The translations under genes were made by a program, and so were the position numbers. 52,601 nt of DNA, from the NCBI GenBank assembly GCA_026686805.1, contig GCA_026686805.1_3949.1; one strand, given 5' to 3'. Below are positions 7,569 through 18,537 of this stretch, one piece after another. The stretch's first letter is position 1. Every line of letters starts with the position of its first letter. The notes under the pieces were generated by a model that saw only the letters and a list, made by a program, of their open reading frames with translations, made no database searches and was not told the DNA's origin. The DNA is from a phage.

Positions 7569-8033
7569 TTACTTTGGATATAGATTGTCAAGATAAATGG
7601 CAGCTTCCATTCTACGTCTGTTTTTCAGGCCGTTTGAAGTGACCTTCTTACCTTTTACTGTAACCTTGTTCCACCACTGCATAGCTTCTGCACAACCGAC
7701 CTTATTACCAGCATTGTGGCGCTTGATAAATGTAGAGTCCTGCATAGCTGTGATACCAATGTTGTATGTTTCACTTACAAGTGCATCAAACTCGTTCTGA
7801 GAAGTTGGAACCTTGATAGCTTTGTTCACTGCTGCAACGAACTTTTCAACATCTGCGAGAAGATACTGTTCAGCTTGTTCAGCGGTAATCTTCATACCCA
7901 TCTTAACAGGTTTTCCGTCAATACGGATTGTCCCATACCCAATTGTTGGGATTCCGGCAGAGTCTTCGTAAGCCTCTAACTTCAGACCTTCGAAGAACTT
8001 AATAGCATCTAAACCTTTTCTTGAGAGTTGCAT
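7569..8033 (-). CDS. endolysin, phage lysozyme (GH24, T4-lysozyme-like)
   Basis: N-terminal motif ...FEGLKLEAYEDSAGIPTIGYGT... matches the catalytic Glu/Asp/Thr region of GH24 lysozymes (from memory); 154 aa. Confidence 0.8.
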   Translation of the reverse strand: MQLSRKGLDAIKFFEGLKLEAYEDSAGIPTIGYGTIRIDGKPVKMGMKITAEQAEQYLLADVEKFVAAVNKAIKVPTSQNEFDALVSETYNIGITAMQDSTFIKRHNAGNKVGCAEAMQWWNKVTVKGKKVTSNGLKNRRRMEAAIYLDNLYPK

Positions 8034-8917
8034 TATGCCTCCCCTGCTGGATTAACTGTAACTGTTGCTGCATTAGATGTTACAGAGCCACCTGCGCCAG
8101 TAACTACACAGGTGTAGCTTCCTGAATCAGCAGCGGTTGCTCCTTCTTTGGTGTAGGTTGCAGTAGTTGCATCGAGGATGTCTTCCTCATCTTTCTTCCA
8201 CTGATAACCTGTTGCACCTGTTGCCACAACATTCAACGTTAAGGTCTCACCTTCATTGATTTCTTGATTGGTTGGCTGTTGAGTGATGACAGGTAGTGCG
8301 TTCACAGTCACTGTTGCTGCATCTGAGGTAACACTTGTTCCACCCTCTCCAGATACAACACAAGTGTATGAACCAGCGTCAGAAGGTGCTACTGACTGTT
8401 TTGTGTAAGTTGCAGAATTGGCACTAGGGATGTCCTCACCATCCTTTTTCCATTGATATCCAGTGGCATTAGTTGCAATAACGCTTAGGGTAAGTGTACC
8501 CCCTTCATTTACTGTTTGATTGGTTGGTTGCTGAGTGATTGATGGTGGTGTGATGACATCTTTCAACTTAGCATTCAACATTGAGAACGGCTTAACTCTT
8601 GCCAACCATTCACAGTAAATTGTGTCAACATCTTTACCATTGATGATTGCATACTGCAAATCCATGAAGAAATCAGCAGTTCTCATCTGTGCACCAACAC
8701 TGTAAAGCAATTCATCACTAAATGGAACTTTGTAGTCTGGTTTGTAGTCAAACTTCTCAACTTCTGCAATATCAGCTTCAGGCCAATATGAACTATAGGT
8801 AAGTGGTAAAATAGCCTCTTGATATGTTCTAAAATCATATCTCTTACCAGCCTTTACGTTTGCAATGAAGCCCTTCACAAACTCTTTAAAGTCTGGGTAA
8901 GTCTTTGCTTTAATCAT
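8033..8917 (-). CDS. protein with N-terminal domain paralogous to the adjacent gene plus two tandem Ig-like domains
   Basis: two ~85-aa repeats (..PSITQQPTNQTVNEGGTLTLSV.ATNATGYQWKKDGEDI...SYTCVVSGEGG..VTSDAATVTVN) typical of Ig/I-set-like folds; N-terminus aligns with ORF 8914..9285. Confidence 0.6.
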   Translation of the reverse strand: MIKAKTYPDFKEFVKGFIANVKAGKRYDFRTYQEAILPLTYSSYWPEADIAEVEKFDYKPDYKVPFSDELLYSVGAQMRTADFFMDLQYAIINGKDVDTIYCEWLARVKPFSMLNAKLKDVITPPSITQQPTNQTVNEGGTLTLSVIATNATGYQWKKDGEDIPSANSATYTKQSVAPSDAGSYTCVVSGEGGTSVTSDAATVTVNALPVITQQPTNQEINEGETLTLNVVATGATGYQWKKDEEDILDATTATYTKEGATAADSGSYTCVVTGAGGSVTSNAATVTVNPAGEA

Positions 8918-9285
8918 TTCTTTTTAGCCTCTAAATGTGCGTTTAGTCTAAAATAACCTTTGTGGTGTGGAGATACATCACCAACAACAATGCCTTTAAC
9001 CTTATAACCTTTACCAATTACATACTGAATATCCATAAGGAATCTCCCAAGACCAACAATATGGAACATTGGATATAATAGGTTCTCAGAGTCTGGAATA
9101 TTGATTTCAGGTTTGTAGGTGTGTTGTTTGCTTGTTGGTGTAATATCTTCTTCAGGCCATTTACTGAGTCTCCATGTCAAAGGTGTTGGGATAACATCAT
9201 TAAGGTTGTACCTTTCACCATTTTGCACGGAATTGATATAGGATTGTAGGAAGCAATAAAAGTCTTTTGCACTCTTAGCTTTCAT
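8914..9285 (-). CDS. hypothetical protein, paralog of the N-terminal domain of 8033..8917
   Basis: shared motifs (YxxP...FMDLQY.I..GKDV / FLMDIQYVIGKGYKV; RxxxFxxLNAxL) seen by eye. Confidence 0.5.
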   Translation of the reverse strand: MKAKSAKDFYCFLQSYINSVQNGERYNLNDVIPTPLTWRLSKWPEEDITPTSKQHTYKPEINIPDSENLLYPMFHIVGLGRFLMDIQYVIGKGYKVKGIVVGDVSPHHKGYFRLNAHLEAKKK

Positions 9286-9923: not shown

Positions 9924-10150
9924 TTTTCAGTTCTCCTGCGATTTATGATTTTGCTGCAATAGAGAAACGAAGTAAACTCACTGGAAGAAACCATTAAGTG
10001 TTGTTCACTAGATTGAGCCATTGCCCTGAAATACATTCCAGTCAAAGCATCATAGTGACTATTCTTTCCAATTGAGGTTATATAGCCATGACTCTTTGCA
10101 GTTTGATATAAATCTATAATATCTGCGATTTCTAATTGGGAACTACACAT
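9917..10150 (-). CDS. hypothetical protein (77 aa)
   Basis: ORF from track. Confidence 0.4.
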   Translation of the reverse strand: MCSSQLEIADIIDLYQTAKSHGYITSIGKNSHYDALTGMYFRAMAQSSEQHLMVSSSEFTSFLYCSKIINRRRTEKC

Positions 10151-10392
10151 AGATAATCCTCTTGTCTTCTGTAATTTTGAAAGAACAGGTACAGACCAAT
10201 TTCAGAGGATGAATAGTAGATTGACTCTACCCTTTTTGATTCCTTACAGTGATTGGTATTCTTACCTTTCTTCGGTTTATTTGATTTTCTCATTAAGTCT
10301 CCTTTGTAGAACAAGGCAGACCTACAGCTTTAAGTAAGATGGTACAGTAATCCATACAACAAGTCAAGAACTATTGCAAGTTAAAAAAGTTG

Positions 10393-10416
10393 TTGACAAA
10401 GTACTTGACAAGGTGT
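10393..10416 (+). promoter_or_regulatory. conserved element gttgacaaWgtacttgacaaggtgt with tandem TTGACA boxes (copy 1)
   Basis: near-identical copy at 52541-52565; lies in divergent intergenic region upstream of the + strand gene at 10543. Confidence 0.35.
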
Positions 10417-10542
10417 AGGCTTATAAATACTTAGAAGATTACTTAAAAGGTTCCTCTAAAAAGGCTATTTAAACAGATATCTTTCTGGATATCTATCTTT
10501 TATCTTAAAAGCCTTTTAAGAGGTCTTATAAGAGGCATACCA

Positions 10543-10914
10543 ATGAAAAACAGAACAAACAAAGGCCAGTTTAAAAAAGGCCAATCTGGAAACCCATCTG
10601 GAAGACCAAAAGGCTCTCGCAACAAAAGCTCACTTGTAAAAGCTCAACTGACCATTGACAATTCTGCTGAGTTTGCTGCAAAGTTATTTGAAGCGATTGT
10701 TACAAGGGATGCTGCTAAGCTTGCAGAGTTCGGGTTAAACACAGATGACGTAACCATCAAGAGTATGATTGAGGTCGGTAAAACTATCTTTACTCACTCA
10801 GCAGGTGAGATGAAAGCACTTGCAGCAGACACTAAGAAGACTCCTGATAATGGTGGTCAACAACAGACAGATAACAAACCAACGTTCTCTGCTGTAGCGA
10901 CTCTTAAAAAATAA
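10543..10914 (+). CDS. hypothetical protein with basic N-terminal GNPSGRPKG (AT-hook-like) motif
   Basis: ORF with AAGAGG RBS; motif KGQSGNPSGRPKGSRNK suggests nucleic-acid binding (inference). Confidence 0.55.
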   Translation: MKNRTNKGQFKKGQSGNPSGRPKGSRNKSSLVKAQLTIDNSAEFAAKLFEAIVTRDAAKLAEFGLNTDDVTIKSMIEVGKTIFTHSAGEMKALAADTKKTPDNGGQQQTDNKPTFSAVATLKK

Positions 10915-10925
10915 TTTTAAAAGGT

Positions 10926-10961
10926 GTTGACAGACTCTATAAAGTTGCTCTAAAGTCTGTC
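10926..10961 (+). promoter_or_regulatory. perfect 9-bp inverted repeat (tgacagact / agtctgtca) containing a TTGACA box, between two genes
   Basis: seen directly; hairpin 10927-10961 with 17-nt loop; could be terminator-like hairpin and/or operator/promoter. Confidence 0.3.
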
Positions 10962-10995
10962 ACATCAACAAACAAATGAGAGAAGAGAGTAAAAT

Positions 10996-12411
10996 ATGAG
11001 CGAATTATTTAAACATGCGCACCTTCATGCAGGTCGAACTGAAAATGGTGCTGTAAACCATACTTCATCAATGTCTGCTCTTGTAGACTTTTACAAAGCT
11101 GCTGGTTCAAGCCGTAGCAACGTAGAAATCTTACCAGACCTGTTCTACAAAGCTTTGCGTGAGGATGTTGATGTTGTAGTTCGTATTTTGCTTCATATGC
11201 GAGATGTACGAGAAGGTATGGGTGAGCGTAAAGCCTTCAGAACTGTTTTACTTCAAGCGATTGAAGACAAAGTTTTAGAGCCTACGCAGGTTCTTCGCAT
11301 TATGGATAAGATTGCAGAACTTGGTCGTTTTGATGACTTCAAAATCTTCGTAGGTACTCGTTTCGAGACAGATGCCTTCAAACATCTAGAAGCAGCATTA
11401 CTAGACCCTGCAACAGCAGGTTTGGCGGCTAAGTGGTTACCACGAGTCAAACCACGTCATAAGCAGTTTGTAAAACGTTTCTGCAAGTTTGCCAACTTGA
11501 GTGAGAAAGAGTACCGCACACTGTTGTCTGCACTATCTGATACAGTTGAGCAAAAAATCTCTGCTAATGAGTTTGGTAAGATTGACTACAGTAAGATTCC
11601 TTCACTTGCTGCTGCACGTTACCAAAAACTGTTTAACCGCAAAGATGGAGAACGCTACAAAGCTTACATCGAGTCCTTATCAAAGGGTGAGGCTAAGATT
11701 AATGCTGGTGCTGTTTACCCATACGATGTAATTAAATCTGTTAAGCATGGTAATGCAGATGTTGCTAATGAGCAGTGGAAAGCACTACCAAACTGGATGG
11801 CAGAGGGTGAAAACATCTTGTGTATGTCTGATGTTTCAAGCTCAATGTCTTGGGTGAATTTTGGTTCAATTACTGCTCTTGATATTGGTGTTTCACTTGC
11901 ATTGTATGTAGCAGAACGTAATACAGGTTGCTTTAAGAATGAGTTGATGGTTTATTCAACAAACCCTCACTTCATCGAACTGAGTGGTGATTTACGAAAC
12001 CGTCATCGTCAGGTGATGCGACACGTTGAATATGGCTCAACTAACTTACAAGCAGCTTTTGACCGTATTCTTGAAACAGGTAAAAGAAACAACTTGACTC
12101 AGAAAGATATGCCAAGTAAGCTTATCATCTTCTCCGATATGGAGTTCAATCAGGTTGATGGAGCTAACGGTCGTACAAACTTTGAAGCAATTCGTAGTAA
12201 GTACAAAAAAGCTGGATACGAAATGCCTCAACTGGTATTCTGGTACTTAGCAAACCGTAATGGTACTTGCGAAGTGTCTGTTAAGGATAACGGTGTAGCA
12301 ATGGTATCTGGTTTTTCTCCAGCTACTTTAAAAGCTCTGCTTGGTGGTGAGAAGTTTGACCCAATCAGTGTAATGCTCAAAGCAGTAATGATTGACCGTT
12401 ATATCTGGTAA
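10996..12411 (+). CDS. von Willebrand factor A (vWA) domain protein with MIDAS motif, N-terminal helical domain
   Basis: DxSxS MIDAS-like motif (MSDVSSSMS) followed by hydrophobic strand ...LIIFSDMEFNQ; 471 aa; RBS present. Confidence 0.55.
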   Translation: MSELFKHAHLHAGRTENGAVNHTSSMSALVDFYKAAGSSRSNVEILPDLFYKALREDVDVVVRILLHMRDVREGMGERKAFRTVLLQAIEDKVLEPTQVLRIMDKIAELGRFDDFKIFVGTRFETDAFKHLEAALLDPATAGLAAKWLPRVKPRHKQFVKRFCKFANLSEKEYRTLLSALSDTVEQKISANEFGKIDYSKIPSLAAARYQKLFNRKDGERYKAYIESLSKGEAKINAGAVYPYDVIKSVKHGNADVANEQWKALPNWMAEGENILCMSDVSSSMSWVNFGSITALDIGVSLALYVAERNTGCFKNELMVYSTNPHFIELSGDLRNRHRQVMRHVEYGSTNLQAAFDRILETGKRNNLTQKDMPSKLIIFSDMEFNQVDGANGRTNFEAIRSKYKKAGYEMPQLVFWYLANRNGTCEVSVKDNGVAMVSGFSPATLKALLGGEKFDPISVMLKAVMIDRYIW

Positions 12412-12420
12412 AAAGTTTTA

Positions 12421-12457
12421 AAAAGGGTATTGACAATGTGTTTGATACCCTTTAATA
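12421..12457 (+). promoter_or_regulatory. sigma70-like promoter TTGACA-17-TAATAT embedded in a perfect 9-bp inverted repeat, upstream of the tRNA array
   Basis: -35 ttgaca 12429-12434, 17-nt spacer, -10 taatat 12452-12457; inverted repeat aaagggtat(12421-12429)/atacccttt(12444-12452). Confidence 0.45.
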
Positions 12458-12576
12458 TGTTCTACATAGAAACGAAACGAGAGCTTTTCTAAGATACTGA
12501 AAAATATTTTAAAAAAGTTCTTGACAACCACTAAAAAATAATGTTAAAGTGGTTACATAGAGTTTGAAAAGTTTAT

Positions 12577-12653
12577 CTCTGTTTAGCTCAGCTTGGTAGA
12601 GCGTTCCGTTTGGGGCGGTAAGGCCGGAGGTTCAAGTCCTCCAACAGAGACCA
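12577..12653 (+). tRNA. tRNA-Pro (anticodon TGG)
   Basis: hand-folded cloverleaf: acceptor ctctgtt/aacagag, D-arm gctcagcttggtagagc, anticodon loop ttTGGgg, T-loop ttcaagt, CCA encoded. Confidence 0.65.
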
Positions 12654-12660
12654 AATTAAT

Positions 12661-12738
12661 GTTCCAGTAGACAAAATGGTAAAGTCACCACTCTTTCAAA
12701 GTGGATATCTGAGGGTTCAAATCCCTTCTGGAACGCCA
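12661..12738 (+). tRNA. tRNA-Glu (anticodon TTC)
   Basis: acceptor gttccag/ctggaac, anticodon stem ccact/agtgg, loop ctTTCaa, T-loop ttcaaat, CCA encoded. Confidence 0.75.
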
Positions 12739-12745
12739 GTTTTGA

Positions 12746-12817
12746 CAGAAGACCAATTACAGCAAACTTAATCTACTCATCTGACACGAAATCGGACAAA
12801 GAAGATATTTGGTCTGG
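12746..12817 (+). repeat. bipartite spacer element copy a (CAGAAGACC-nnWTWCAGCAA ... GGTCTGG)
   Basis: seen directly; 5' block 12746-12765, 3' block 12811-12817; agacc/ggtct can pair. Confidence 0.5.
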
Positions 12818-12828
12818 TCATTGAGAAT

Positions 12829-12905
12829 TGCGGGTATAGAGAAAGGGCGTCTCACATGTCTCATTAGCATGGTATCGGCAGGTTCGACTCCTGCACCCGC
12901 CTCCA
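12829..12905 (+). tRNA. tRNA with CAT anticodon (Met or Ile-lysidine type)
   Basis: anticodon stem catgt/gcatg, loop ctCATta, T-arm gcagg-ttcgact-cctgc, CCA encoded; acceptor has a mismatch at one end so boundaries +/-1. Confidence 0.6.
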
Positions 12906-12911
12906 ATTTTG

Positions 12912-12971
12912 CAGAAGACCGTATTCAGCAACAAAATACTTTTTGCGGATAAAAGAAAAAACACGGTCTGG
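12912..12971 (+). repeat. bipartite spacer element copy b
   Basis: gcagaagaccgtattcagcaa ... acacggtctgg. Confidence 0.5.
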
Positions 12972-12982
12972 CAATGTATTAA

Positions 12983-13059
12983 GGTTAGGAAGCACATAAG
13001 GTATGTGCGGTCGCCTGTTAAGCGAATGGCACAGGGTTCGAATCCCTGACTAACCGCCA
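12983..13059 (+). tRNA. tRNA-Asn (anticodon GTT)
   Basis: acceptor ggttagg/actaacc, D-stem gcac/gtgc, anticodon loop ctGTTaa, T-arm caggg-ttcgaat-ccctg, CCA encoded. Confidence 0.7.
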
Positions 13060-13067
13060 AATTAAAT

Positions 13068-13155
13068 GTGTCGTTATCCCGTAGATGGTAGCGGTGGGGA
13101 CTGTAAATCCCTTGTCATTGAGACTCGGTAGGTTCGACTCCTACACGGCACACCA
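13068..13155 (+). tRNA. tRNA-Tyr (anticodon GTA), long variable arm
   Basis: acceptor gtgtcgt/acggcac, anticodon stem gggga/tccct, loop ctGTAaa, long variable arm, T-arm gtagg-ttcgact-cctac, CCA. Confidence 0.7.
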
Positions 13156-13160
13156 ATAAA

Positions 13161-13237
13161 GGCTATGTAGTTTAACTGGAGAAAATACTCCCCTGTCACG
13201 GGAGATGATGTGAGTTCAAGTCTCATCGTAGCCGCCA
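13161..13237 (+). tRNA. tRNA-Asp (anticodon GTC)
   Basis: acceptor ggctatg/cgtagcc, anticodon stem ctccc/gggag, loop ctGTCac, T-loop ttcaagt, CCA. Confidence 0.75.
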
Positions 13238-13298
13238 ATTTTGAGAGGGCTATTTAGCCCCTCCCTTAAAGAGTTCTTACGAGTATTCTTTAAAGGAG

Positions 13299-13372
13299 CA
13301 GAAGACCAAATACAGCAAGAATGTATGAAATTTCAAGCCAATTTAATTTTGAAAATTTAAAACTTGGTCTGG
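13299..13372 (+). repeat. bipartite spacer element copy c
   Basis: agcagaagaccaaatacagcaa ... aacttggtctgg. Confidence 0.5.
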
Positions 13373-13385
13373 CTCAACAAATTTA

Positions 13386-13517
13386 CAGAAGACCGTTTAC
13401 AGCAAAACTTAAACAATCTATTTCTCCGGTAAAGAAAAGGCGAAGGTTCGATTCCTTCACTCGGCAGATGTCGAGTTGGTGTAATGGTAGCACTTAAGAT
13501 GATAAACAACGGTCTGG
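13386..13517 (+). repeat. bipartite spacer element copy d, enclosing a tRNA-like relic
   Basis: acagaagaccgtttacagcaa ... aacaacggtctgg; interior holds T-arm/acceptor-like and acceptor/D-arm-like segments. Confidence 0.5.
13442..13495 (+). other. tRNA-like relic in reversed half order (T-arm + 3' acceptor strand immediately followed by complementary 5' acceptor strand + D-arm)
   Basis: gaagg-ttcgatt-ccttc + actcggc then gtcgagt + ggtgtaatggtagcac; no complete cloverleaf can be drawn. Confidence 0.35.
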
Positions 13518-13666
13518 TAATTATCTTTGTAGATAAGTTATTAAGCTTACCTGTGAGTATGCGACCACAAAGGGTGAAAGGGTAAATTCTAGATTTAAAC
13601 CCAACAAGGCACATCGCTACAGACCTTAAGCAAGTCTGGGTAGCTTATCTACAAAGGTAATTTAAT

Positions 13667-13742
13667 GGAAGTGTAGCAGAATGGTGATGCGGCAGACTTT
13701 TAATCTGACAGGCGATGGGTTCGAATCCCTCCACTTCTACCA
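13667..13742 (+). tRNA. tRNA-Lys (anticodon TTT)
   Basis: acceptor ggaagtg/cacttct, anticodon loop ctTTTaa, T-loop ttcgaat, CCA; T-stem weak in my fold. Confidence 0.6.
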
Positions 13743-13746
13743 AAAT

Positions 13747-13823
13747 GGTTCAGTCGCAGATAAGGTAATGCAAGGGTCTCATAAGCCCTATGAATGTGGG
13801 TTCAATTCCCATCTGAACCTCCA
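13747..13823 (+). tRNA. tRNA with CAT anticodon (Met, initiator or Ile-lysidine type)
   Basis: acceptor ggttcag/ctgaacc, anticodon stem agggt/gccct, loop ctCATaa, T-loop ttcaatt, CCA. Confidence 0.7.
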
Positions 13824-13831
13824 ATTTATCG

Positions 13832-14326
13832 GTGATACTTATGATTTGTGCTAACAAAGATTGCGGAAATGAAGCCGTTAAAGGTGGAAAATTTTGCTCA
13901 CGCTCTTGTTCTGCAAAAGTGAACAACAAGAAACACCCAAAGAGAAGTCAGGAAGGCTCTTGCCATTCATGCGGAAAGGTAACGCCAAAAGCAAGAAAAT
14001 ACTGTGACGAATGTATTTCAGGTGGAGTCATGAAAAAACATAAGACCCATCATGAAAAAAGCAAAGCTAAATCACTGCACGTTAAAAAGTCTCGTGATAG
14101 ACTGAAGAAGGCTTTAGTTGATTACAAGGGTGGTTGTTGTTCAATTTGTGGTTACAATAGGTGCATAAAGGCTCTAGAGTTTCACCACTTAGACCCTAAC
14201 ACAAAAGACTTCACAGTAGGTCAAAAACACTACTCACTGGCTACAATGCAGTCTGAAGTTGATAAGTGTGTCTTGCTTTGTGCAAATTGCCATAGAGAAG
14301 TACACGAAGGGGTAACAATGCTGTGA
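13832..14326 (+). CDS. HNH homing endonuclease (Cys-rich N-terminus, C-terminal HNH motif)
   Basis: C-terminal ...CSICGYNRC...LEFHHLDPNTKDF...CVLLCANCHREVHEG = HNH signature; embedded in tRNA array; stop codon overlaps start of tRNA-Ile. Confidence 0.75.
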   Translation: MILMICANKDCGNEAVKGGKFCSRSCSAKVNNKKHPKRSQEGSCHSCGKVTPKARKYCDECISGGVMKKHKTHHEKSKAKSLHVKKSRDRLKKALVDYKGGCCSICGYNRCIKALEFHHLDPNTKDFTVGQKHYSLATMQSEVDKCVLLCANCHREVHEGVTML

Positions 14327-14395
14327 AAGCACATATGGATGTGCATTCGGCTGATAACCGAAAGGTAGAAGGTTCGAATCCTTCTCACAGTACCA
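14320..14395 (+). tRNA. tRNA-Ile (anticodon GAT)
   Basis: acceptor gctgtga/tcacagt, D-stem gcac/gtgc, anticodon stem ttcgg/ccgaa, loop ctGATaa, T-arm gaagg-ttcgaat-ccttc, CCA. Confidence 0.75.
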
Positions 14396-14410
14396 ATTTC
14401 AATAAAGTTG

Positions 14411-14439
14411 TTGACATTGAGATGCGACTACTTTATAGT
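14411..14439 (+). promoter_or_regulatory. sigma70-like promoter TTGACA-17-TATAGT inside the tRNA array
   Basis: -35 ttgaca 14411-14416, 17-nt spacer, -10 tatagt 14434-14439. Confidence 0.5.
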
Positions 14440-14445
14440 AACCTT

Positions 14446-14610
14446 AGTTTTCGTTGCGTAGCGTCTATTTTGCAAATTTAAAATAAATGCAAACGACAAT
14501 GTTTTTCTGGCAGTAGCTTGATAGGCTAAACACCAGTGAGGTCTTCCAATCCCTCATCAAAGAATTTGGCGTACTAGCCCACGGTATGATTAATAAGGTG
14601 GGCATCTTTA
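14446..14610 (+). ncRNA. candidate small structured RNA downstream of promoter (no coding potential, no tRNA fold)
   Basis: hairpins tttgca/tgcaaa and gcccac(14577-14582)/gtgggc(14598-14603) followed by atcttt; purely structural inference. Confidence 0.2.
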
Positions 14611-14643
14611 AGGGCTTTCTAAGAGAGTCTTTAAAGATAATTA

Positions 14644-14725
14644 CGGGGCGTATCTCAGCGGTCTTCTAAACCGCCGTTAACCGAGTAAGTGGAGTATGCG
14701 GGTTCGAGTCCTGCCGCCTCGACCA
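14644..14725 (+). tRNA. atypical tRNA-like gene, possible tRNA-Arg (anticodon TCT); D-arm not placeable, 23-nt region between anticodon and T arms
   Basis: acceptor cggggcg/cgcctcg, perfect anticodon arm gcggt-ctTCTaa-accgc, T-arm gcggg-ttcgagt-cctgc, CCA; geometry non-canonical. Confidence 0.35.
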
Positions 14726-14868
14726 ATTTAGTTAGCAGATTACTTAGACGACCTTATCGGGTCTCCGTGTAAGGAGGTGGTCTGTATCTCATGTTTTCCA
14801 GAACATGTAAATAATCTGAGAAGGGGCTTTACAGTGTTGAGATAATACGGTAAGCTTCGAATTATAGT

Positions 14869-14951
14869 ATGGGACGATGTTAAGACTCTAAGGCATGAGC
14901 AACGGCTTCCAACACCGTTTCAAAGGGGTTCAACTCCTCCGTCCCATGCCA
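14869..14951 (+). tRNA. atypical tRNA-like gene, possible tRNA-Trp (anticodon CCA); 7 extra nt between acceptor and D-arm
   Basis: acceptor atgggac/gtcccat (7/7), anticodon arm acggc-ttCCAac-accgt, T-loop ttcaact, CCA. Confidence 0.35.
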
Positions 14952-14964
14952 AAGTCTTATTAGG

Positions 14965-15052
14965 GGTAGGTAGCGGCTAATGGTAGCCAAACTGTCTTGA
15001 AAACAGTTGCCACTGTAGAGATACGGTGAGGGTTCGACTCCTTTACTTACCG
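14965..15052 (+). tRNA. tRNA-Ser (anticodon TGA), long variable arm
   Basis: acceptor ggtaggt/acttacc, perfect anticodon stem actgt/acagt, loop ctTGAaa, 20-nt variable arm, T-arm gaggg-ttcgact-ccttt; CCA not encoded. Confidence 0.7.
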
Positions 15053-15310
15053 CCTAATAAGATTTTAAAGCCAAGCTTCATTCGGATGTTGCTTTGGTAT
15101 CCCTCGTGTATTGTCGTACACACTGATAAAACACCTAGTAGGTGTCACGGAGAAGAGATAATATCAAGCTCTCCAAAGGTTCTAGTCACCGGATTAAACA
15201 AGACTATGCAAAGACCTTTTTAGGTCTTTTTAGAGGGCTTCTAAGGTTATTACGGCTTGTTGTGGAACCTTGTTGCTTAGGTTCTTAGAAGTTCTCTAAA
15301 AAGATTTAAT

Positions 15311-15388
15311 GGGAGATTGACGGTAATTGGTAAACCTATCTCGCTTAGAACGAGATGTTTGAGGGTTCGAATCCCTTGTCTCCTACCA
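15311..15388 (+). tRNA. tRNA with TAG anticodon (Leu by anticodon), short variable loop
   Basis: acceptor gggagat/gtctcct, perfect anticodon stem tctcg/cgaga, loop ctTAGaa, T-loop ttcgaat, CCA; class I architecture unusual for Leu. Confidence 0.55.
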
Positions 15389-15395
15389 AATTAAT

Positions 15396-15471
15396 GCAGG
15401 TGTAGCAAAATGGTTATGCGGCTGACTCTTAATCAGTAAGACGATGGGTTCAATTCCCTCCACCTGTACCA
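15396..15471 (+). tRNA. tRNA-Lys (anticodon CTT)
   Basis: acceptor gcaggtg/cacctgt, anticodon stem gctga/tcagt, loop ctCTTaa, T-loop ttcaatt, CCA. Confidence 0.65.
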
Positions 15472-15476
15472 AAAAT

Positions 15477-15552
15477 GGGGTCATAGTTTATATGGTTAAA
15501 ATTCGAGTTTTGCAAACTTGGGAACTGAGTTCAATTCTCAGTGACTCCACCA
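15477..15552 (+). tRNA. tRNA-Ala (anticodon TGC)
   Basis: acceptor ggggtca/tgactcc, anticodon stem cgagt/acttg, loop ttTGCaa, T-loop ttcaatt, CCA. Confidence 0.65.
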
Positions 15553-15558
15553 ATTAGT

Positions 15559-15633
15559 GCATCCATAGTTTAAACGGGAAAATTACAGTCTTCCAAACTG
15601 AGGTTGAGGGTTCGATTCCCTCTGGATGCTCCA
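15559..15633 (+). tRNA. tRNA-Gly (anticodon TCC)
   Basis: acceptor gcatcca/tggatgc, anticodon loop ctTCCaa, T-arm gaggg-ttcgatt-ccctc, CCA. Confidence 0.7.
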
Positions 15634-15640
15634 AATTAAT

Positions 15641-15716
15641 GCTCCTATCGTATAATTGGCTATTACGGTTGCCTTGTAAGCAACTTATCAGGGTTCGAAT
15701 CCTTGTGGGAGCACCA
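15641..15716 (+). tRNA. tRNA-Thr (anticodon TGT)
   Basis: acceptor gctccta/tgggagc, perfect anticodon stem gttgc/gcaac, loop ctTGTaa, T-loop ttcgaat, CCA. Confidence 0.75.
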
Positions 15717-15718
15717 AT

Positions 15719-15811
15719 TCAGAGGTCAAGTGAAAGACCGCTGGTGTCAACTGAAGACCGTAACAAATTCCACGGAGTTGAGTTAGCGGCACAACTTCAG
15801 ACCTCTTTCAC
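15719..15811 (+). other. structured spacer element (inverted repeat agaggtc ... gacctct, internal gaagaccgtaacaaattc block)
   Basis: seen directly; related to the CAGAAGACC-containing spacer elements; function unknown. Confidence 0.3.
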
Positions 15812-15886
15812 ACTCGCTTAGTTTATATGGTAAAACATCACCCTTACAAGATGAAGAAAAAGGTTCAAGTCCTTTAGTGAGTACCA
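15812..15886 (+). tRNA. tRNA-Val (anticodon TAC)
   Basis: acceptor actcgct/agtgagt, anticodon stem tcacc/gatga (one mismatch), loop ctTACaa, T-arm aaagg-ttcaagt-ccttt, CCA. Confidence 0.65.
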
Positions 15887-15887
15887 T

Positions 15888-15965
15888 GTTCCAGTATCCC
15901 AATTGGCAGAGGATGCAAGCTCAAACCTTGTATTAGTGACGGTTCGAATCCGTCTTGGAACACCA
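15888..15965 (+). tRNA. tRNA with CAA anticodon (Leu by anticodon), short variable loop
   Basis: acceptor gttccag/ttggaac, anticodon stem gcaag/cttgt, loop ctCAAac, T-arm gacgg-ttcgaat-ccgtc, CCA. Confidence 0.55.
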
Positions 15966-15981
15966 ATTTTAGGAGAACACT

Positions 15982-16089
15982 ATGAGCAATAAGTCAATTG
16001 CAAAAAAGTTTAGAGCGTCATACCTAAACAGACGTAAAAACAAAGTTTGTGAAAAACTGTATGGTGTTCTCGTAGGTAAGCAGGATTAG
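15982..16089 (+). CDS. possible small ORF (35 aa, basic) overlapping the 5' end of tRNA-Arg
   Basis: AGGAG RBS 6 nt upstream of ATG; below the track's 60-aa cutoff; overlap with tRNA makes it doubtful. Confidence 0.2.
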   Translation: MSNKSIAKKFRASYLNRRKNKVCEKLYGVLVGKQD

Positions 16090-16155
16090 TTCAAATGGAT
16101 AGAGCAACAGTCTACGAAGCTGTTAATAGGGGTTCGAATCCCTTATCCTGCACCA
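16080..16155 (+). tRNA. tRNA-Arg (anticodon ACG)
   Basis: acceptor gcaggat/atcctgc, D-arm gttcaaatggatagagc, anticodon stem acagt/gctgt, loop ctACGaa, T-loop ttcgaat, CCA. Confidence 0.75.
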
Positions 16156-16174
16156 ATTTAAAGAGGCTATTTAG

Positions 16175-16732
16175 ATGAGATATTTGAAGTATGCTTCATG
16201 GATTTTCTTAGCTTTGTTAGAGCCATTTGCAGCAATCTTAGCAGTTATCTTAGCACCTTTTGTAGTTCCATTCTACAGTGAGAAGAAAGGACACTTACCT
16301 TTCGGGTTCAGATGGATGGAGACATATGACAACCCAATTGATGGTGATGAAGGTCACGTTAAAAGATGGGCTAATATCAGATGGATTGGTAAACTAGGTG
16401 TCTACATGCAAAGAGTCGGATGGCTCTGGAGAAACAAAGCTTATAACTTCTCTTACCATGTATTAGGAAGAGATGTAAAAGATGTTACTAAGTGGAAAGG
16501 TAATATCAACGTAAGTTCTGACCCTGAAGATAATCAGACAGGTTATCTACTAATGTGGAACAGTAATGCTTGGGGATTATTCGCTTTTATCCCATCAATT
16601 AAAATCTTTGGTAAACAATTTTACTGGAGAATTTATATTGGATGGAAACTAAAAAGTGTTGTCCCAGAAGAAAGAGCATTCTCAAGGGAAAGAGTTATGT
16701 TGGCATTCTTTATTCATCCACTGAGAAAGTAA
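16175..16732 (+). CDS. hypothetical protein with hydrophobic N-terminus (185 aa), embedded in tRNA array
   Basis: ORF from track; N-terminal hydrophobic segment WIFLALLEPFAAILAVILAPFVVPF. Confidence 0.5.
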   Translation: MRYLKYASWIFLALLEPFAAILAVILAPFVVPFYSEKKGHLPFGFRWMETYDNPIDGDEGHVKRWANIRWIGKLGVYMQRVGWLWRNKAYNFSYHVLGRDVKDVTKWKGNINVSSDPEDNQTGYLLMWNSNAWGLFAFIPSIKIFGKQFYWRIYIGWKLKSVVPEERAFSRERVMLAFFIHPLRK

Positions 16733-16740
16733 AGATTTAA

Positions 16741-16816
16741 AGGGGATTAGTTTACAAGGTTAAAACCTCGGTCTTTGAAATCGAAGAAGTTGGTTCAATT
16801 CCAACATCCCCCGCCA
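16741..16816 (+). tRNA. tRNA-Gln (anticodon TTG)
   Basis: acceptor aggggat/atccccc (1-72 mismatch), anticodon stem tcggt/atcga, loop ctTTGaa, T-arm gttgg-ttcaatt-ccaac, CCA. Confidence 0.65.
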
Positions 16817-16818
16817 AT

Positions 16819-16897
16819 GCTCCATTACTCCAATTGGCAGAGAGGCCAGACTTAAAATCTGTGTTATGTATCGGTTCGAATCCGATATGGAGTACCA
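16819..16897 (+). tRNA. tRNA with TAA anticodon (Leu by anticodon), short variable loop
   Basis: acceptor gctccat/atggagt, anticodon stem caga/tctg, loop ctTAAaa, T-arm atcgg-ttcgaat-ccgat, CCA. Confidence 0.5.
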
Positions 16898-16902
16898 AAT
16901 TT

Positions 16903-16978
16903 AGCGGCATAGCATAACTGGCAATGCAGCAGTCTCTGAAGCTGTCTTATTAAGGTTCAAATCCTTATGCCGCTGCCA
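16903..16978 (+). tRNA. tRNA-Gln (anticodon CTG)
   Basis: acceptor agcggca/tgccgct, D-stem gcat/atgc, anticodon loop ctCTGaa (stem with two G-U pairs), T-arm taagg-ttcaaat-cctta, CCA. Confidence 0.55.
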
Positions 16979-17009
16979 CTTCTAAGGATTCTTACGAGAG
17001 TCCTTAAAT

Positions 17010-17085
17010 GTGGCCTTATCATAAACGGTAATGACCCATGCTGTGAACATGGTCTATACGGGTTCAAATCCCGTAGGTCACCCCA
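17010..17085 (+). tRNA. tRNA-His (anticodon GTG)
   Basis: acceptor gtggcct/aggtcac, perfect anticodon stem ccatg/catgg, loop ctGTGaa, T-arm acggg-ttcaaat-cccgt, CCA. Confidence 0.7.
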
Positions 17086-17091
17086 ATTTAT

Positions 17092-17167
17092 AGTCCAAGT
17101 AGCTTATATGGTTAAAGCGCGTGTCTGAAAAACATGAGAAGAGTGTTCAAATCCCACTGGACTACCA
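17092..17167 (+). tRNA. tRNA-Phe (anticodon GAA)
   Basis: acceptor (t)agtcca/tggact(a), anticodon stem cgtgt/acatg, loop ctGAAaa, T-loop ttcaaat; 5' boundary +/-1. Confidence 0.6.
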
Positions 17168-17183
17168 ATTTCAAAGGTGCTTA

Positions 17184-17918
17184 ATGAAAGAGATGACAGA
17201 ACAAGGTAAGGAGATTTTCAATCTCTTAAAAACCGGTAAAGGGTTTTCTAACCCCCTTATTACTGGTGCAGCAGTTCTCGGTGGAACCGTAGCTGCCTCT
17301 ACATCACTTGTAAGCTCTATTAGCTCTGTATCAGACCCTACAGTAAAGGATAAGCTTGTTGCTGCTGGACTTACAACAGTTCTGCTTAACAGCTTTACCA
17401 CGAGTCTGACAAGCACTACATCAACTACCAAAACACTAACAGATTACGGTCAAAAATCCATTGATGAGTTTTCATCACGTATGCAGGTAGCAAAAGGTTA
17501 TTCTAATGTTATGGGTGCAGCAGGTGAACAAGTTGGCTGTACACCATTTAGTGGTATTATGGGTGTTGCTACAGAGTATGGTCAAAAAGCTATTGATACG
17601 ATTAACAGTGCACTAGATAGTGTTAATGGTGTGTTAAGTGACTTACAAGATGCTATTGACAAAGGTCTTGATACTATTTCTGATTTAGCTGAGCAAGCTG
17701 TTAGTAAGATTAATGAAGGTATTTCAAAAATTACAGCTTATGCAGATGAAGTTGTGCAGATGATTGAAGAAGAAGCTGCTCTTATTGCAGAGTACCTTAA
17801 AACGAATATCAATGGGTTCTTAGCAGGTATCTTACCAGACTGGTTTGATGATGCTTGTAAAACTGGTGTAATTGACACTATTGCAACACCAGAAATGAAG
17901 AACGCATTACAGAAATAA
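17184..17918 (+). CDS. hypothetical Ser/Thr-rich protein (244 aa), embedded in tRNA array
   Basis: track ORF 17121..17918 overlaps tRNA-Phe; ATG at 17184 has RBS aaaggtg and clears the tRNA. Confidence 0.5.
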   Translation: MKEMTEQGKEIFNLLKTGKGFSNPLITGAAVLGGTVAASTSLVSSISSVSDPTVKDKLVAAGLTTVLLNSFTTSLTSTTSTTKTLTDYGQKSIDEFSSRMQVAKGYSNVMGAAGEQVGCTPFSGIMGVATEYGQKAIDTINSALDSVNGVLSDLQDAIDKGLDTISDLAEQAVSKINEGISKITAYADEVVQMIEEEAALIAEYLKTNINGFLAGILPDWFDDACKTGVIDTIATPEMKNALQK

Positions 17919-17920
17919 AT

Positions 17921-18013
17921 GGAAGATTAACCCTAAAAGGTAAGGGAGCAGTTTGCTAAACTGCCAGTAGCTGAGAAATCGGTGTACCAGTTCAAGTCTG
18001 GTATCTTCCTCCA
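17921..18013 (+). tRNA. tRNA-Ser (anticodon GCT), long variable arm
   Basis: acceptor ggaagat/atcttcc, perfect anticodon stem gcagt/actgc, loop ttGCTaa, ~21-nt variable arm, T-arm accag-ttcaagt-ctggt, CCA. Confidence 0.75.
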
Positions 18014-18017
18014 ATTT

Positions 18018-18093
18018 GAATCCGTGACAGAAATGGCTATGTGCCTGTCTGCAAAACAGGTTTATAAGGGTTCGAGTCCCTTCGGATTCTCCA
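18018..18093 (+). tRNA. tRNA-Cys (anticodon GCA)
   Basis: acceptor gaatccg/cggattc, perfect anticodon stem cctgt/acagg, loop ctGCAaa, T-arm aaggg-ttcgagt-ccctt, CCA. Confidence 0.75.
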
Positions 18094-18255
18094 ATTTATT
18101 TTACTCTCTCTCAATTAAAATAATAATAATGCCCTGCTATAAGTATTCTTCCTTTCGCTACCGAAGAGTATTTTTAGACAGGGCTTTTTTACAGAGTTAT
18201 ACTTTATAAGAAGCCTTATACAGTATGTCTCTGACGTACATTGTGGTTTCTCCTT

Positions 18256-18279
18256 GACGGTCTCTGTACCGTCTTTTTT
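18256..18279 (+). terminator. intrinsic terminator after tRNA array
   Basis: hairpin gacggt-ctctgt-accgtc followed by T6; a second, looser hairpin (gccctg ... cagggc + T6, 18131-18190) lies upstream. Confidence 0.5.
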
Positions 18280-18315
18280 AAGGGGAAACATGATTAACTA
18301 TTTGGAGAAAACATA

Positions 18316-18516
18316 ATGAGCGAGACCGTTTATAAAGAACTTTATGAAGCTAATAAGAAGCTAGAATTTATGCAGAATACTATCATGGCAATTGCAGACA
18401 GATTGTCTGTAGCAACAGGTATTGATATTAAAGAAGCATCTATGGATGCACTTCTTGATGCTGTTGATGCAAAGTTCGAAGTTAAGAAAGAAGAGACTGC
18501 TACAGACTCTGAATAA
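18316..18516 (+). CDS. hypothetical protein (66 aa) immediately upstream of large terminase
   Basis: ORF with GGAG RBS; position is compatible with a small terminase subunit but there is no sequence evidence. Confidence 0.4.
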   Translation: MSETVYKELYEANKKLEFMQNTIMAIADRLSVATGIDIKEASMDALLDAVDAKFEVKKEETATDSE

Positions 18517-18537
18517 TTCTATTTGCGGAGGTGCTTA

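What the first reader, a model, noticed from the sequence alone, without database searches (positions are those of the whole stretch)
10543..12411. vWA/MIDAS-domain protein plus GRPKG-motif protein directly upstream of the tRNA array
The 471-aa protein has a clear MIDAS-like motif (DVSSSMS) and vWA-like core after a ~270-aa helical N-terminal domain. Its neighbour has an AT-hook-like KGQSGNPSGRPKG motif. A helical-domain-plus-vWA architecture is also seen in Ro60-type RNA-binding proteins, which pair with tRNA-like Y RNAs; the N-terminal domain here is shorter than a TROVE domain, so an RNA-chaperone role tied to the adjacent tRNA-like RNAs is speculation only.
Basis: inference. Interest (0 to 1): 0.55.

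Follow-up and report, generated by a model that had tools for sequence, protein, structure and literature searches.

The report
Phage Ro60-like protein with Y-like RNAs
The 471-residue protein of this Felix O1-type coliphage has the ring fold of the RNA-quality-control protein Ro60, and four previously unannotated small RNA genes resembling Ro60's "Y RNA" partners lie between the first tRNA genes next to it, so the locus looks like a phage Ro60/Y-RNA system that can be tested in E. coli.

Summary

New here: the first three inter-tRNA gaps hold four small RNA genes (12743-12820, 12909-12974, 13296-13375, 13383-13520). They share a covarying bulged basal stem followed by CAGCAA. The longest carries a tRNA-like domain in the order seen in bacterial YrlA Y RNAs. 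A generic stem-N2-5-CAGCAA module lies within 600 nt of DUF2828 genes in 63 of 91 lineages (168 on the gene strand, 13 opposite). RtcB is the commonest protein neighbour in bacterial contigs. Three Ounavirinae lineages whose fetched sequence lacks DUF2828 keep the tRNA array and show no copy of these RNAs (whole genome tested only for SunLIRen).

The DUF5681 neighbour is not a partner. It is probably the small terminase. Function (RNA/tRNA quality control or repair, possibly counter-defence) is inferred, not shown.

The parts
10543..10914 (+). DUF5681 gene (123 aa; invariant K12 G13 N17 P18 G20 R21 P22 G24 S25 N27). Probably the small terminase subunit, not a partner of the Ro60-like protein.
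   Evidence: The homologues found by this query are confined to Ounavirinae and are present with or without DUF2828 at the locus. The gene lies directly upstream of and overlapping TerL in L098-L101. The structure model is poor and gave no fold hit.
10927..10956 (+). Sigma-70-like promoter (TTGACA-18-TAAAGT) in front of the Ro60-like gene.
   Evidence: A promoter is annotated at the same place in phage ASO1A. This is a consensus match only.
10996..12411 (+). Gene for a compact Ro60-fold protein (471 aa): HEAT-like helical ring domain at about 1-265, vWA/MIDAS domain 274-455, terminal helix 456-471. Pfam DUF2828+DUF7788; PHROG 850.
12430..12550 (+). Two sigma-70-like promoters (12430-12458 and 12521-12550) between the gene and tRNA-Pro. 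They probably drive the tRNA/Y-like RNA cluster.
   Evidence: Consensus matches only. The first overlaps a hairpin at 12422-12453.
12743..12820 (+). Y-like RNA 1 (78 nt), filling the gap between tRNA-Glu and tRNA-Met. Layout: outer helix UGAC/GUCA, bulge AGA versus G, inner helix AGACCAA/UUGGUCU, then UUA-CAGCAA.
12909..12974 (+). Y-like RNA 2 (66 nt), filling the gap between tRNA-Met and tRNA-Asn. Layout: UUGC/GCAA, bulge AGA versus G, AGACCGU/ACGGUCU, then AUU-CAGCAA.
   Evidence: In orthologues the outer helix is UUAC/GUAA, a compensatory change.
13296..13375 (+). Y-like RNA 3 (80 nt). Layout: GAGC/GCUC, bulge AGA versus G, AGACCAA/UUGGUCU, then AUA-CAGCAA.
13383..13520 (+). Y-like RNA 4 (138 nt). 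It has the same basal module (UUAC/GUAA, AGA versus G, AGACCGU/ACGGUCU, UUA-CAGCAA) closing a tRNA-like domain in YrlA order: anticodon-like arm, T arm at 13442-13458, closed acceptor-like hairpin at 13459-13476, D arm at 13479-13493.
   Evidence: It is the only non-tRNA hit with E below 0.1 of covariance model R1, which was trained on Clostridial and S13 elements (21.1 bits, E about 0.005). The Rfam tRNA model partly matches 13409-13459. The same minimum-energy architecture appears in SUSP2, Moogle and ValKK3, with covarying closing and acceptor-like stems. The element overlaps a hypothetical ORF at 13357-13614 on the - strand.
12577..18093 (+). tRNA gene array (25 by ARAGORN) in which the Y-like RNAs are embedded.

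Best explanation
The 471-aa protein is a compact member of the Ro60 structural class: a HEAT-like helical ring closed by a vWA/MIDAS domain. It most likely forms ribonucleoprotein particles with the four small RNAs encoded just downstream, between the first tRNA genes.

Each of those RNAs has a basal stem made of an outer helix, an AGA/G bulge and the inner helix AGACC/GGUCU, followed by unpaired CAGCAA. This is the probable protein-binding module. The longest RNA adds a tRNA-like domain, as in bacterial YrlA Y RNAs.

The RNAs would be transcribed with the tRNAs from the host-type promoters at 12430 and 12521. RNase P and the 3' processing of the flanking tRNAs would then release them.

By analogy with Ro60/Rsr, the ring would take up single-stranded ends of misfolded or cleaved structured RNAs, here most plausibly tRNAs or their precursors. 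The Y-like RNAs would gate the ring or tether it to a host enzyme such as PNPase or the RtcB ligase. The net effect would be to protect or repair the translation RNAs during infection.

Shown: the fold, the intact MIDAS, the existence, covariation and family-wide linkage of the RNAs, and RtcB neighbourhood in relatives. Inferred: protein-RNA binding, processing, substrates, host partners and benefit to the phage.

For: RNAs in the window. The motif AGAAGACC-N5-CAGCAA occurs 4 times against 0.01 expected, always on the + strand, at 12747-13405. All four fold into the same basal architecture. In 38 copies from 10 Felixouna/Moogle/Susp sources, 11 of 11 basal pairs hold, with four fully covarying outer helices.

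Family level. The module of a 7-bp stem, 2-5 nt, then CAGCAA occurs within 300 nt of the gene 117 times on the gene strand and 3 times on the opposite strand. It is present within 600 nt in 63 of 91 lineages, against 7 on the opposite strand, with 146 distinct stem sequences. In the elongated tRNA-like versions in Clostridia, the extra hairpin shows 10-21 double compensatory changes per pair.

Presence and absence. The RNAs are present in every Ounavirinae source with DUF2828 that was fetched. No copy was found in the sequence fetched from SunLIRen (whole genome), Wc4-1 and LPML1 (loci only).

Neighbours. RtcB (Pfam E 1e-105) lies 104-286 nt downstream on the same strand in six loci, and 1-2.6 kb away in three more, including Listeria phage A511. 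tRNA genes lie within 1 kb in 27 of 91 lineages (p about 3e-5 in each of two independent sets).

Precedent. Phage phiLo Ro60 binds two adjacent Y-like RNAs and host PNPase (PMC12135203). Bacterial YrlA RNAs lie within 4 kb of Ro60 on the same strand (PMC4201824).
Against: No member matches Pfam TROVE, even at E up to 10. Sequence similarity to Ro60 is limited to the vWA half. No Rfam Y RNA or YrlA match was found in the window. The RNAs are predicted only: no expression, end-mapping or binding data exist. Folding z-scores of the short forms are modest, -1.1 to -2.2. Y-like RNA 4 overlaps a hypothetical ORF annotated on the opposite strand in wV8. There is no RtcB in the 52.6-kb window. About 30% of lineages show no module under the simple descriptor. 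The modules could instead be cis-regulatory operators in the gene's own transcript. Lineages are not phylogenetically independent, so the p-values are approximate.
Confidence: 0.6

Rival explanations
1. The protein is a Ro60-fold RNA binder, but the CAGCAA stem-loops are not separate small RNAs. They would be cis-acting elements: operators for autoregulation in the gene's mRNA, or processing or stability signals that punctuate tRNA precursors.
For: In many lineages the modules sit as 1-4 tandem copies in what could be the 5' UTR (A511, F341, L163, L167). In the window they fill the gaps between tRNAs exactly, as spacer processing signals would.
Against: In the window and in Rumpelstiltskin they lie downstream of the gene, and in the window beyond two promoters. 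One copy carries a complete tRNA-like domain, and in Clostridia the module is embedded in full tRNA-like genes. Ounavirinae arrays without the gene have no such spacers in the sequence fetched, yet must still be processed.
Confidence: 0.15
2. The protein is mainly a vWA/MIDAS protein-protein adaptor, for instance an assembly or chaperone cofactor or a sequestering factor for a host protein. Its helical domain would have lost RNA binding, and the neighbourhood with tRNAs and small RNAs would reflect residence in a variable accessory region.
For: The MIDAS is the most strongly conserved motif. No TROVE sequence signature is present. LeBron gp53, a homologue, is moderately toxic when over-expressed, with no mechanism known (PMC13148394). 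Fourteen of the 36 viral-contig lineages and 32 of the 55 genome-contig lineages have no tRNA within the 8-10-kb flank fetched.
Against: The whole ring superposes on Ro60 and not only the vWA domain. No MoxR-type ATPase or any other protein neighbour recurs, whereas the CAGCAA RNA module does, at 117 versus 3 by strand within 300 nt. RtcB linkage points to RNA.
Confidence: 0.12
3. The two proteins form a pair: the DUF5681 protein is a nucleic-acid-binding cofactor of the vWA protein, as the finding's title suggests.
For: The two genes are adjacent on the same strand in all Felixouna, Moogle and Susp phages and in P778.
Against: DUF5681 recurs next to DUF2828 in only 2 of the 36 viral-contig lineages. 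It persists at the same place in three Ounavirinae lineages without DUF2828 at the locus. The DUF2828 gene has its own promoter-like site. DUF5681 sits at the small-terminase position elsewhere.
Confidence: 0.05

Closest known systems
Ro60/Rsr with Y RNAs (Salmonella rsr-yrlBA-rtcBA operon; Deinococcus Rsr-Yrn1-PNPase)
   Same: Ring of helical repeats closed by a vWA/MIDAS domain. Several small RNAs are encoded within about 1 kb on the same strand. They include short forms and one long form with a tRNA-like domain in the order T arm, closed acceptor-like stem, D arm, as in YrlA versus YrlB (PMC4201824). The 5'/3' basal stem carries a bulge and a short conserved purine-rich motif. RtcB lies next door in bacterial relatives.
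   Different: The protein is about 70 residues shorter. It has no Pfam TROVE match and is about 12-15% identical to Ro60. The RNA motif is CAGCAA after an AGA/G-bulged stem, not GNCGAA. The RNAs do not reach the Rfam YrlA or Y_RNA models. In this phage the RNAs are interleaved with tRNA genes.
Thermus phage phiLo Ro60 with Yrl1/Yrl2 (PDB 9kop, 9l5y; PMC12135203)
   Different: phiLo Ro60 is a recognised TROVE protein of 502 aa, and its RNAs carry a CGAA motif. Sequence identity to the window protein is about 15-16%. Nothing is known about PNPase for the window protein.
Mycobacteriophage 'Ro-like RNA binding protein' (for example LeBron gp53, Rumpelstiltskin gp54); PHROG 850 'RNA-binding protein'
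   Same: True homologues, 31-34% identical over the full length, and already named Ro-like or RNA-binding in databases. Rumpelstiltskin has three CAGCAA modules just downstream of the gene.
   Different: The names appear to be annotation transfers with no experiment behind them, and I found no description of cognate RNAs. LeBron gp53 is only known to be moderately toxic on over-expression. These phages have no tRNA genes nearby.
Stable small RNAs of unknown function in the phage T4 tRNA gene cluster (species 1 and 2 / rnaC, rnaD). Recalled from my own knowledge, not tested here.
   Same: Non-tRNA stable RNAs encoded among phage tRNA genes and released by tRNA processing.
   Different: No sequence comparison was made. 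To my knowledge T4 has no DUF2828 gene.

Membership tests
Ro60 / TROVE family | Ring of HEAT-like helical repeats closed by a vWA domain, with a C-terminal helix returning to the ring | tested here: met
Ro60 / TROVE family | Sequence match to the TROVE domain model (Pfam PF05731) | tested here: not met
   None of the 41 family members hits TROVE at E up to 10. Eight of 41 hit vWA_Ro60 PF25045 weakly, best 1.7e-4. The family profile against PDB sequences gives Ro60 at E 0.37 over the MIDAS region only. hhalign against human Ro60 covers only 237-444.
Ro60 / TROVE family | Intact MIDAS (DxSxS...T...D) in the vWA domain | tested here: met
   D279, S281, S283, T349 and D381 are invariant in 41 homologues.
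Ro60 / TROVE family | Cognate Y RNA gene(s) close by on the same strand, with a 5'/3' stem carrying a conserved bulged motif | tested here: met
   Four elements lie 0.33-1.1 kb downstream on the + strand, with a covarying bulged stem followed by CAGCAA. At family level the count within 300 nt is 117 on the gene strand versus 3 on the opposite strand. The criterion is met in a variant form, because the motif differs from GNCGAA.
Ro60 / TROVE family | Match of the RNAs to the curated Y RNA models (Rfam Y_RNA, YrlA RF02553) | tested here: not met
   No hit in window 10000-19000 at E up to 5 or in 13238-13666 at E up to 10. The weak YrlA hits in L181 (30 bits, gathering score 69) are artefacts of tandem tRNA-like genes.
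Ro60 / TROVE family | Binding of Y RNA and of misfolded RNA ends; partnership with PNPase | not testable with these tools
   This needs biochemistry.
Pfam DUF2828 + DUF7788 (PHROG 850) | Scores above the curated cut-offs over both domains | tested here: met
   DUF2828 scores 102 bits (cut-off 29) and DUF7788 148 bits (cut-off 27.1). phrog_850 matches at E 4e-184 over the full length.
RtcB-centred RNA repair operons | RtcB ligase gene adjacent on the same strand | tested here: not met
   There is no RtcB in the window. The feature is met in relatives only: six loci at 104-286 nt, three more at 1-2.6 kb including Listeria phage A511.
Pfam DUF5681 (neighbour protein) | Score above the cut-off; invariant GNPxGRPKGSxN motif | tested here: met
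   54 bits against a cut-off of 27.5. The invariant columns are listed.
Small terminase subunit (neighbour protein) | Small gene immediately upstream of the large terminase gene; oligomeric helical fold with a DNA-binding N-terminus | tested here: inconclusive
   The position criterion is met for distant DUF5681 members, which overlap the TerL start in L098-L101. In the window terL is 7.6 kb downstream. The model has pLDDT 68 and gave no fold hit. No terminase family hit was found.
AT-hook (neighbour protein) | Match to the AT-hook motif model (R-G-R-P core) | tested here: not met
   No Pfam AT_hook hit at E up to 1. The sequence reads S-G-R-P-K-G, within a motif specific to DUF5681.

The most novel reading that the evidence does not exclude
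DUF2828/DUF7788 proteins together with CAGCAA stem-loop RNAs would be a second, so far undescribed, widespread family of Ro60/Y-RNA-type particles in phages and bacteria. They are linked to RtcB in cells and to tRNA clusters in large virulent phages. In Felix O1-type coliphages, four such RNAs are hidden between tRNA genes and matured by tRNA processing. The particle would serve the phage as a counter-measure to host nucleases that cut tRNAs, by recruiting host RtcB or blocking PNPase.
Probability: 0.4. Interest if true: 0.85.

Novelty: new variant of a known kind. Interest (0 to 1): 0.7.

Why it matters
Ro60/Y RNA particles are conserved from bacteria to humans, yet their bacterial and viral roles are poorly understood. 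Only one phage Ro60 has been characterised structurally and biochemically, in a thermophile.

If the reading here is right, a compact Ro60 relative with its own class of partner RNAs is common in phages: 710 of 50,697 phage records carry a homologue. It is present in Felix O1-type phages that grow on E. coli K-12 and Salmonella, where genetics, RNA-seq and pull-downs are routine.

The reading also gives a function to unannotated gaps inside phage tRNA arrays. It connects tRNA arrays, increasingly seen as counter-defence against tRNA-cleaving immunity, to an RNA quality-control or repair module. And it gives a testable handle on Pfam DUF2828/DUF7788, which also occur in plants and fungi.

Tried and rejected
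1. Direct sequence search of PDB with the protein found nothing relevant. NCBIfam and PADLOC gave no hits for either protein.

2. A Y RNA in the 165-nt spacer before tRNA-Pro: the spacer holds two promoter-like sites and a hairpin and no Rfam match.

3. The Clostridial motif TGACAA-N6-16-CAGCR does not occur in the window. The window RNAs share only the stem-N3-CAGCAA part.

4. The YrlA hits in L181 were rejected as artefacts that span the T arm of one tandem tRNA-like gene and the D arm of the next.

5. ARAGORN intron mode merges neighbouring tRNAs, for example window 15559-15716. Those calls were discarded.

6. tRNA-Cys anticodon loops (CUGCAAA) mimic the motif. They were filtered out by the distance to the T arm.

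7. No protein neighbour is conserved across the 36 viral-contig lineages: at most 7 share any family (DNA polymerase, ClpP, DnaJ), which reflects lineage synteny.

8. Structure prediction and fold search for DUF5681 gave nothing usable.

9. Literature: no paper on DUF2828 function and none linking Felix O1 to Ro60 or Y RNA. Burroughs & Aravind 2016 (NAR) and Sim et al. 2020 (Annu Rev Microbiol) could not be read, so prior description of this family within 'ROT/TROVE' systems cannot be excluded.

10. The idea that the protein is needed for the tRNA array as such was rejected, because SunLIRen has the array and no homologue anywhere in its genome.
Full report
**What is there.** The window is part of a Felix O1-type myovirus (Felixounavirus). 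The 2.2 kb around the finding is 97-98% identical to many E. coli and Salmonella phages such as wV8. Both ORFs exist as described. One is 10543-10914, 123 aa, with KGQSGNPSGRPKG. The other is 10996-12411, 471 aa, with DVSSSMS at residues 279-285. The tRNA array starts 166 nt after the second gene and holds 25 genes, all on the + strand. The genes lie just right of a divergent control region. Consensus-type sigma-70 promoters precede the 471-aa gene (10927-10956) and the tRNA array (12430-12458, 12521-12550).

**Identity of the large protein.** Pfam assigns DUF2828 plus DUF7788, both well above cut-off. PHROG 850 ('RNA-binding protein') matches over the full length at E 4e-184. A homologue is encoded in 710 of 50,697 phage records. 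These are Felix-like phages, KVP40-like vibriophages, Aeromonas, Cronobacter S13, Sinorhizobium, Campylobacter, Listeria A511, Enterococcus, Staphylococcus, Bacillus and cluster L mycobacteriophages. In the last group it is annotated 'Ro-like RNA binding protein'.

An alignment of 41 homologues shows an invariant full MIDAS (D279, S281, S283, T349, D381) and many invariant Arg/Lys in the helical half.

The AlphaFold model is confident (pLDDT 90, pTM 0.89).
- Foldseek against the PDB returns Ro60 proteins as the top 11 hits: Thermus phage phiLo, Xenopus, human and Deinococcus Rsr. E-values are 2e-8 to 3e-6 with full-length alignments and TMq up to 0.66. Isolated vWA domains score TMq about 0.22.

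The helical domain is therefore a shortened Ro60 ring and not just 'helical'.

At sequence level the relation is weak.
- No member hits Pfam TROVE; 8 of 41 hit vWA_Ro60.
- The family profile finds Ro60 in PDB only at E 0.37.
- hhalign against human Ro60 aligns the last ring helix plus the vWA domain at E 1.5e-4.

I therefore file the protein as a Ro60-fold protein of a distinct family, not as a TROVE-family member.

**Genomic neighbourhood across the family.** I collected 170 loci in three ways: 11 annotated phages, 80 IMG/VR contigs and 80 GTDB genome contigs. At 70% protein identity they form 91 lineages.
- A tRNA gene lies within 1 kb in 12 of 36 lineages of the viral-contig set and in 15 of 55 of the genome-contig set, almost always on the same strand as the gene (two Clostridial loci are the exception).
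- Against a generous 8.5% expectation this gives p about 3e-5 in each set. A placement test within the fetched windows gives Fisher p of 7e-5 and 3e-5.
- The arrangement varies. The gene is upstream of the array in Felix and P778. It is downstream in A511, EFDG1 and Campylobacter F341. It is inside the array in S13 and several uncultured phages.
- Some loci without tRNAs carry a phage tmRNA gene downstream.
- No protein family recurs in more than 7 of the 36 viral-contig lineages.
- In the genome-contig set the commonest neighbour is RtcB (Pfam E 1e-105). It lies directly downstream at 104-286 nt in six loci and within 1-2.6 kb in three more, including Listeria phage A511 gp52. A divergent WYL-domain gene occurs in three lineages.

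This is the layout of the Salmonella rsr-yrlBA-rtcBA operon.

**The partner RNAs.**
- In Clostridial loci where ARAGORN saw no tRNA, the Rfam tRNA model and ARAGORN's intron mode found 1-4 tandem tRNA-like genes of 100-135 nt, 68-700 nt upstream of the gene.
- They carry an extra hairpin between the D arm and the anticodon arm, followed by invariant CAGCAA. RNAalifold shows 10-21 double compensatory changes per pair in that hairpin and almost no broken pairs.
- The same insert is present in two tRNA genes next to the S13 gene.
- A covariance model built only from these elements (R1) hit one place in the window with E below 0.1 that is not an ordinary tRNA: 13336-13467 (21 bits, E about 0.005).
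- Following this up showed that the motif AGAAGACC-N5-CAGCAA occurs four times in the window, against 0.01 expected. All four are on the + strand in the first three inter-tRNA gaps.
- All four fold alike: outer 4-bp helix, AGA/G bulge, inner 7-bp helix AGACCRN/NYGGUCU, three unpaired bases, CAGCAA, then a variable apical part.
- The four outer helices are UGAC/GUCA, UUGC/GCAA, GAGC/GCUC and UUAC/GUAA.
- In 38 copies from ten Felixouna, Moogle and Susp sources, every one of the 11 basal pairs is kept. This includes an orthologous G-C to A-U switch.
- The fourth RNA (13383-13520) encloses an anticodon-like arm, a canonical T arm, a closed acceptor-like hairpin and a D arm. This is the order described for YrlA.
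- Unconstrained folds of the SUSP2, Moogle and ValKK3 counterparts give the same architecture with different closing and acceptor-like stem sequences. P778 keeps the basal layout with an entirely different sequence.

Family-wide, a generic descriptor (7-bp stem, 2-5 nt, CAGCAA, partner strand within 150 nt) finds the following:

| Measure | Gene strand | Opposite strand |
|---|---|---|
| Modules within 300 nt of the gene | 117 | 3 |
| Modules within 600 nt of the gene | 168 | 13 |
| Lineages (of 91) with a module within 600 nt | 63 | 7 |

The gene-strand modules within 1.5 kb of the gene have 146 distinct stem sequences. Examples are three tandem copies just upstream of A511 gp57, two before the Campylobacter gene and three after the Rumpelstiltskin gene.

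**Natural knock-outs.**
- Erwinia phage SunLIRen keeps DUF5681, the syntenic 26-tRNA array and terL. It has no DUF2828 homologue anywhere in its 84.6-kb genome: tblastn with 91 queries gave a best E of 0.017 over 28 aa, and the profile search found nothing.
- Pectobacterium phage Wc4-1 and 'Listeria' phage LPML1 lack the gene at the locus.
- None of the sequence fetched from the three contains the Felix-type RNA motif. The T-arm descriptor finds no element in the tRNA arrays of SunLIRen and Wc4-1.

The gene is therefore not needed for a tRNA array. It does go together with the Y-like RNAs.

**The small neighbour.** DUF5681 homologues found with this query are confined to Ounavirinae. The gene is independent of DUF2828 and is preceded by its own control region. 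Distant DUF5681 genes overlap the start of a large-terminase gene in two unrelated contigs and follow a ParB-methylase in a third. No other small-terminase candidate is recognisable near terL at 18523-20139. I therefore think it is the small terminase, separated from terL by the inserted Ro60-like gene, the Y-like RNAs, the tRNAs and HNH genes. The structure model was too poor to test this.

**Mechanism.** The best-supported reading is a phage Ro60/Y-RNA-type particle. The fold, the conserved MIDAS, the RNAs and their linkage are shown. Binding, maturation by tRNA processing, substrates and host partners are inferred from Ro60 biology. That biology includes Y RNA gating and tethering to PNPase, rsr-rtcB operons induced by tRNA damage, and phiLo Ro60 attenuating PNPase, together with the RtcB neighbourhood seen here. 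A role in keeping tRNAs functional under host attack is plausible but untested.

**Novelty.** The 'RNA-binding/Ro-like' label already exists in databases. I found no paper on DUF2828 function, on its cognate RNAs, or on Ro60/Y RNA in Felix O1-type phages. Two key reviews could not be read. I rate the finding a new variant of a known kind, with interest 0.7.

Noticed in passing
window 10543-10914 and 18523-20139; L098-L101: The DUF5681 gene occupies the small-terminase position (overlapping the TerL start) in unrelated phage contigs. In Ounavirinae it is separated from terL by about 7.6 kb of tRNAs, small RNAs and HNH genes, which suggests a split terS-terL module.
   Followed up: partly
L005 11895-12018 and 12024-12140 (Cronobacter phage S13); L181 7428-7865 and about 25 other Clostridial loci: tRNA-like genes of 100-135 nt carry an extra covarying hairpin (loop UGACAA) plus CAGCAA between the D arm and the anticodon arm. 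In S13 they have an encoded CCA end. Some Clostridial copies lack an anticodon arm. The only Rfam family they reach at its gathering score is tRNA.
   Followed up: partly
L035, L049, L050, L055, L060, L067, L068, L069, L076, L079 and L011 (coordinates): Phage-encoded tmRNA genes lie on the same strand 1.2-7.8 kb from DUF2828 genes in several uncultured phage contigs and in Enterococcus phage EFDG1.
   Followed up: no
window 14644-14722; 14337-14642; 15216-15315: Rfam calls a further tRNA (31.7 bits) that ARAGORN misses. There are weak tmRNA-like matches just upstream of it, and a strongly hairpin-like stretch before tRNA-Leu that hits a miRNA precursor model at E 6e-4. These may be further structured RNAs within the array.
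   Followed up: no
window 13832-14326 (+): An HNH homing-endonuclease ORF lies inside the tRNA array. Its 3' end overlaps the start of tRNA-Ile (14320-14395).
   Followed up: no
window 13357-13614 (-): An 85-aa ORF, annotated as hypothetical gp48 in wV8, lies antisense to Y-like RNA 4 and to the rest of the structured Asp-Lys spacer. It is probably an over-annotation.
   Followed up: no
window 8033-8917 (-) and 8914-9285 (-): A 294-aa protein has two tandem Ig-like repeats (ITQQPTNQ...GYQWKKD...SYTCVV). Its N-terminal domain is paralogous to the adjacent 123-aa ORF. Relatives annotate the protein as tail or Hoc-like.
   Followed up: no
L006 13127-13204 (Sinorhizobium phage phiN3): A suppressor-type tRNA (anticodon UUA) lies 1.8 kb downstream of that phage's DUF2828 gene.
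   Followed up: no
L001 11510-11579 versus window 12909-12974: The second Y-like RNA exists in two allelic forms among Felixounaviruses: a 66-nt form with UUGC/GCAA and a 70-72-nt form with UUAC/GUAA. They have different apical loops, which suggests exchange between paralogues.
   Followed up: partly
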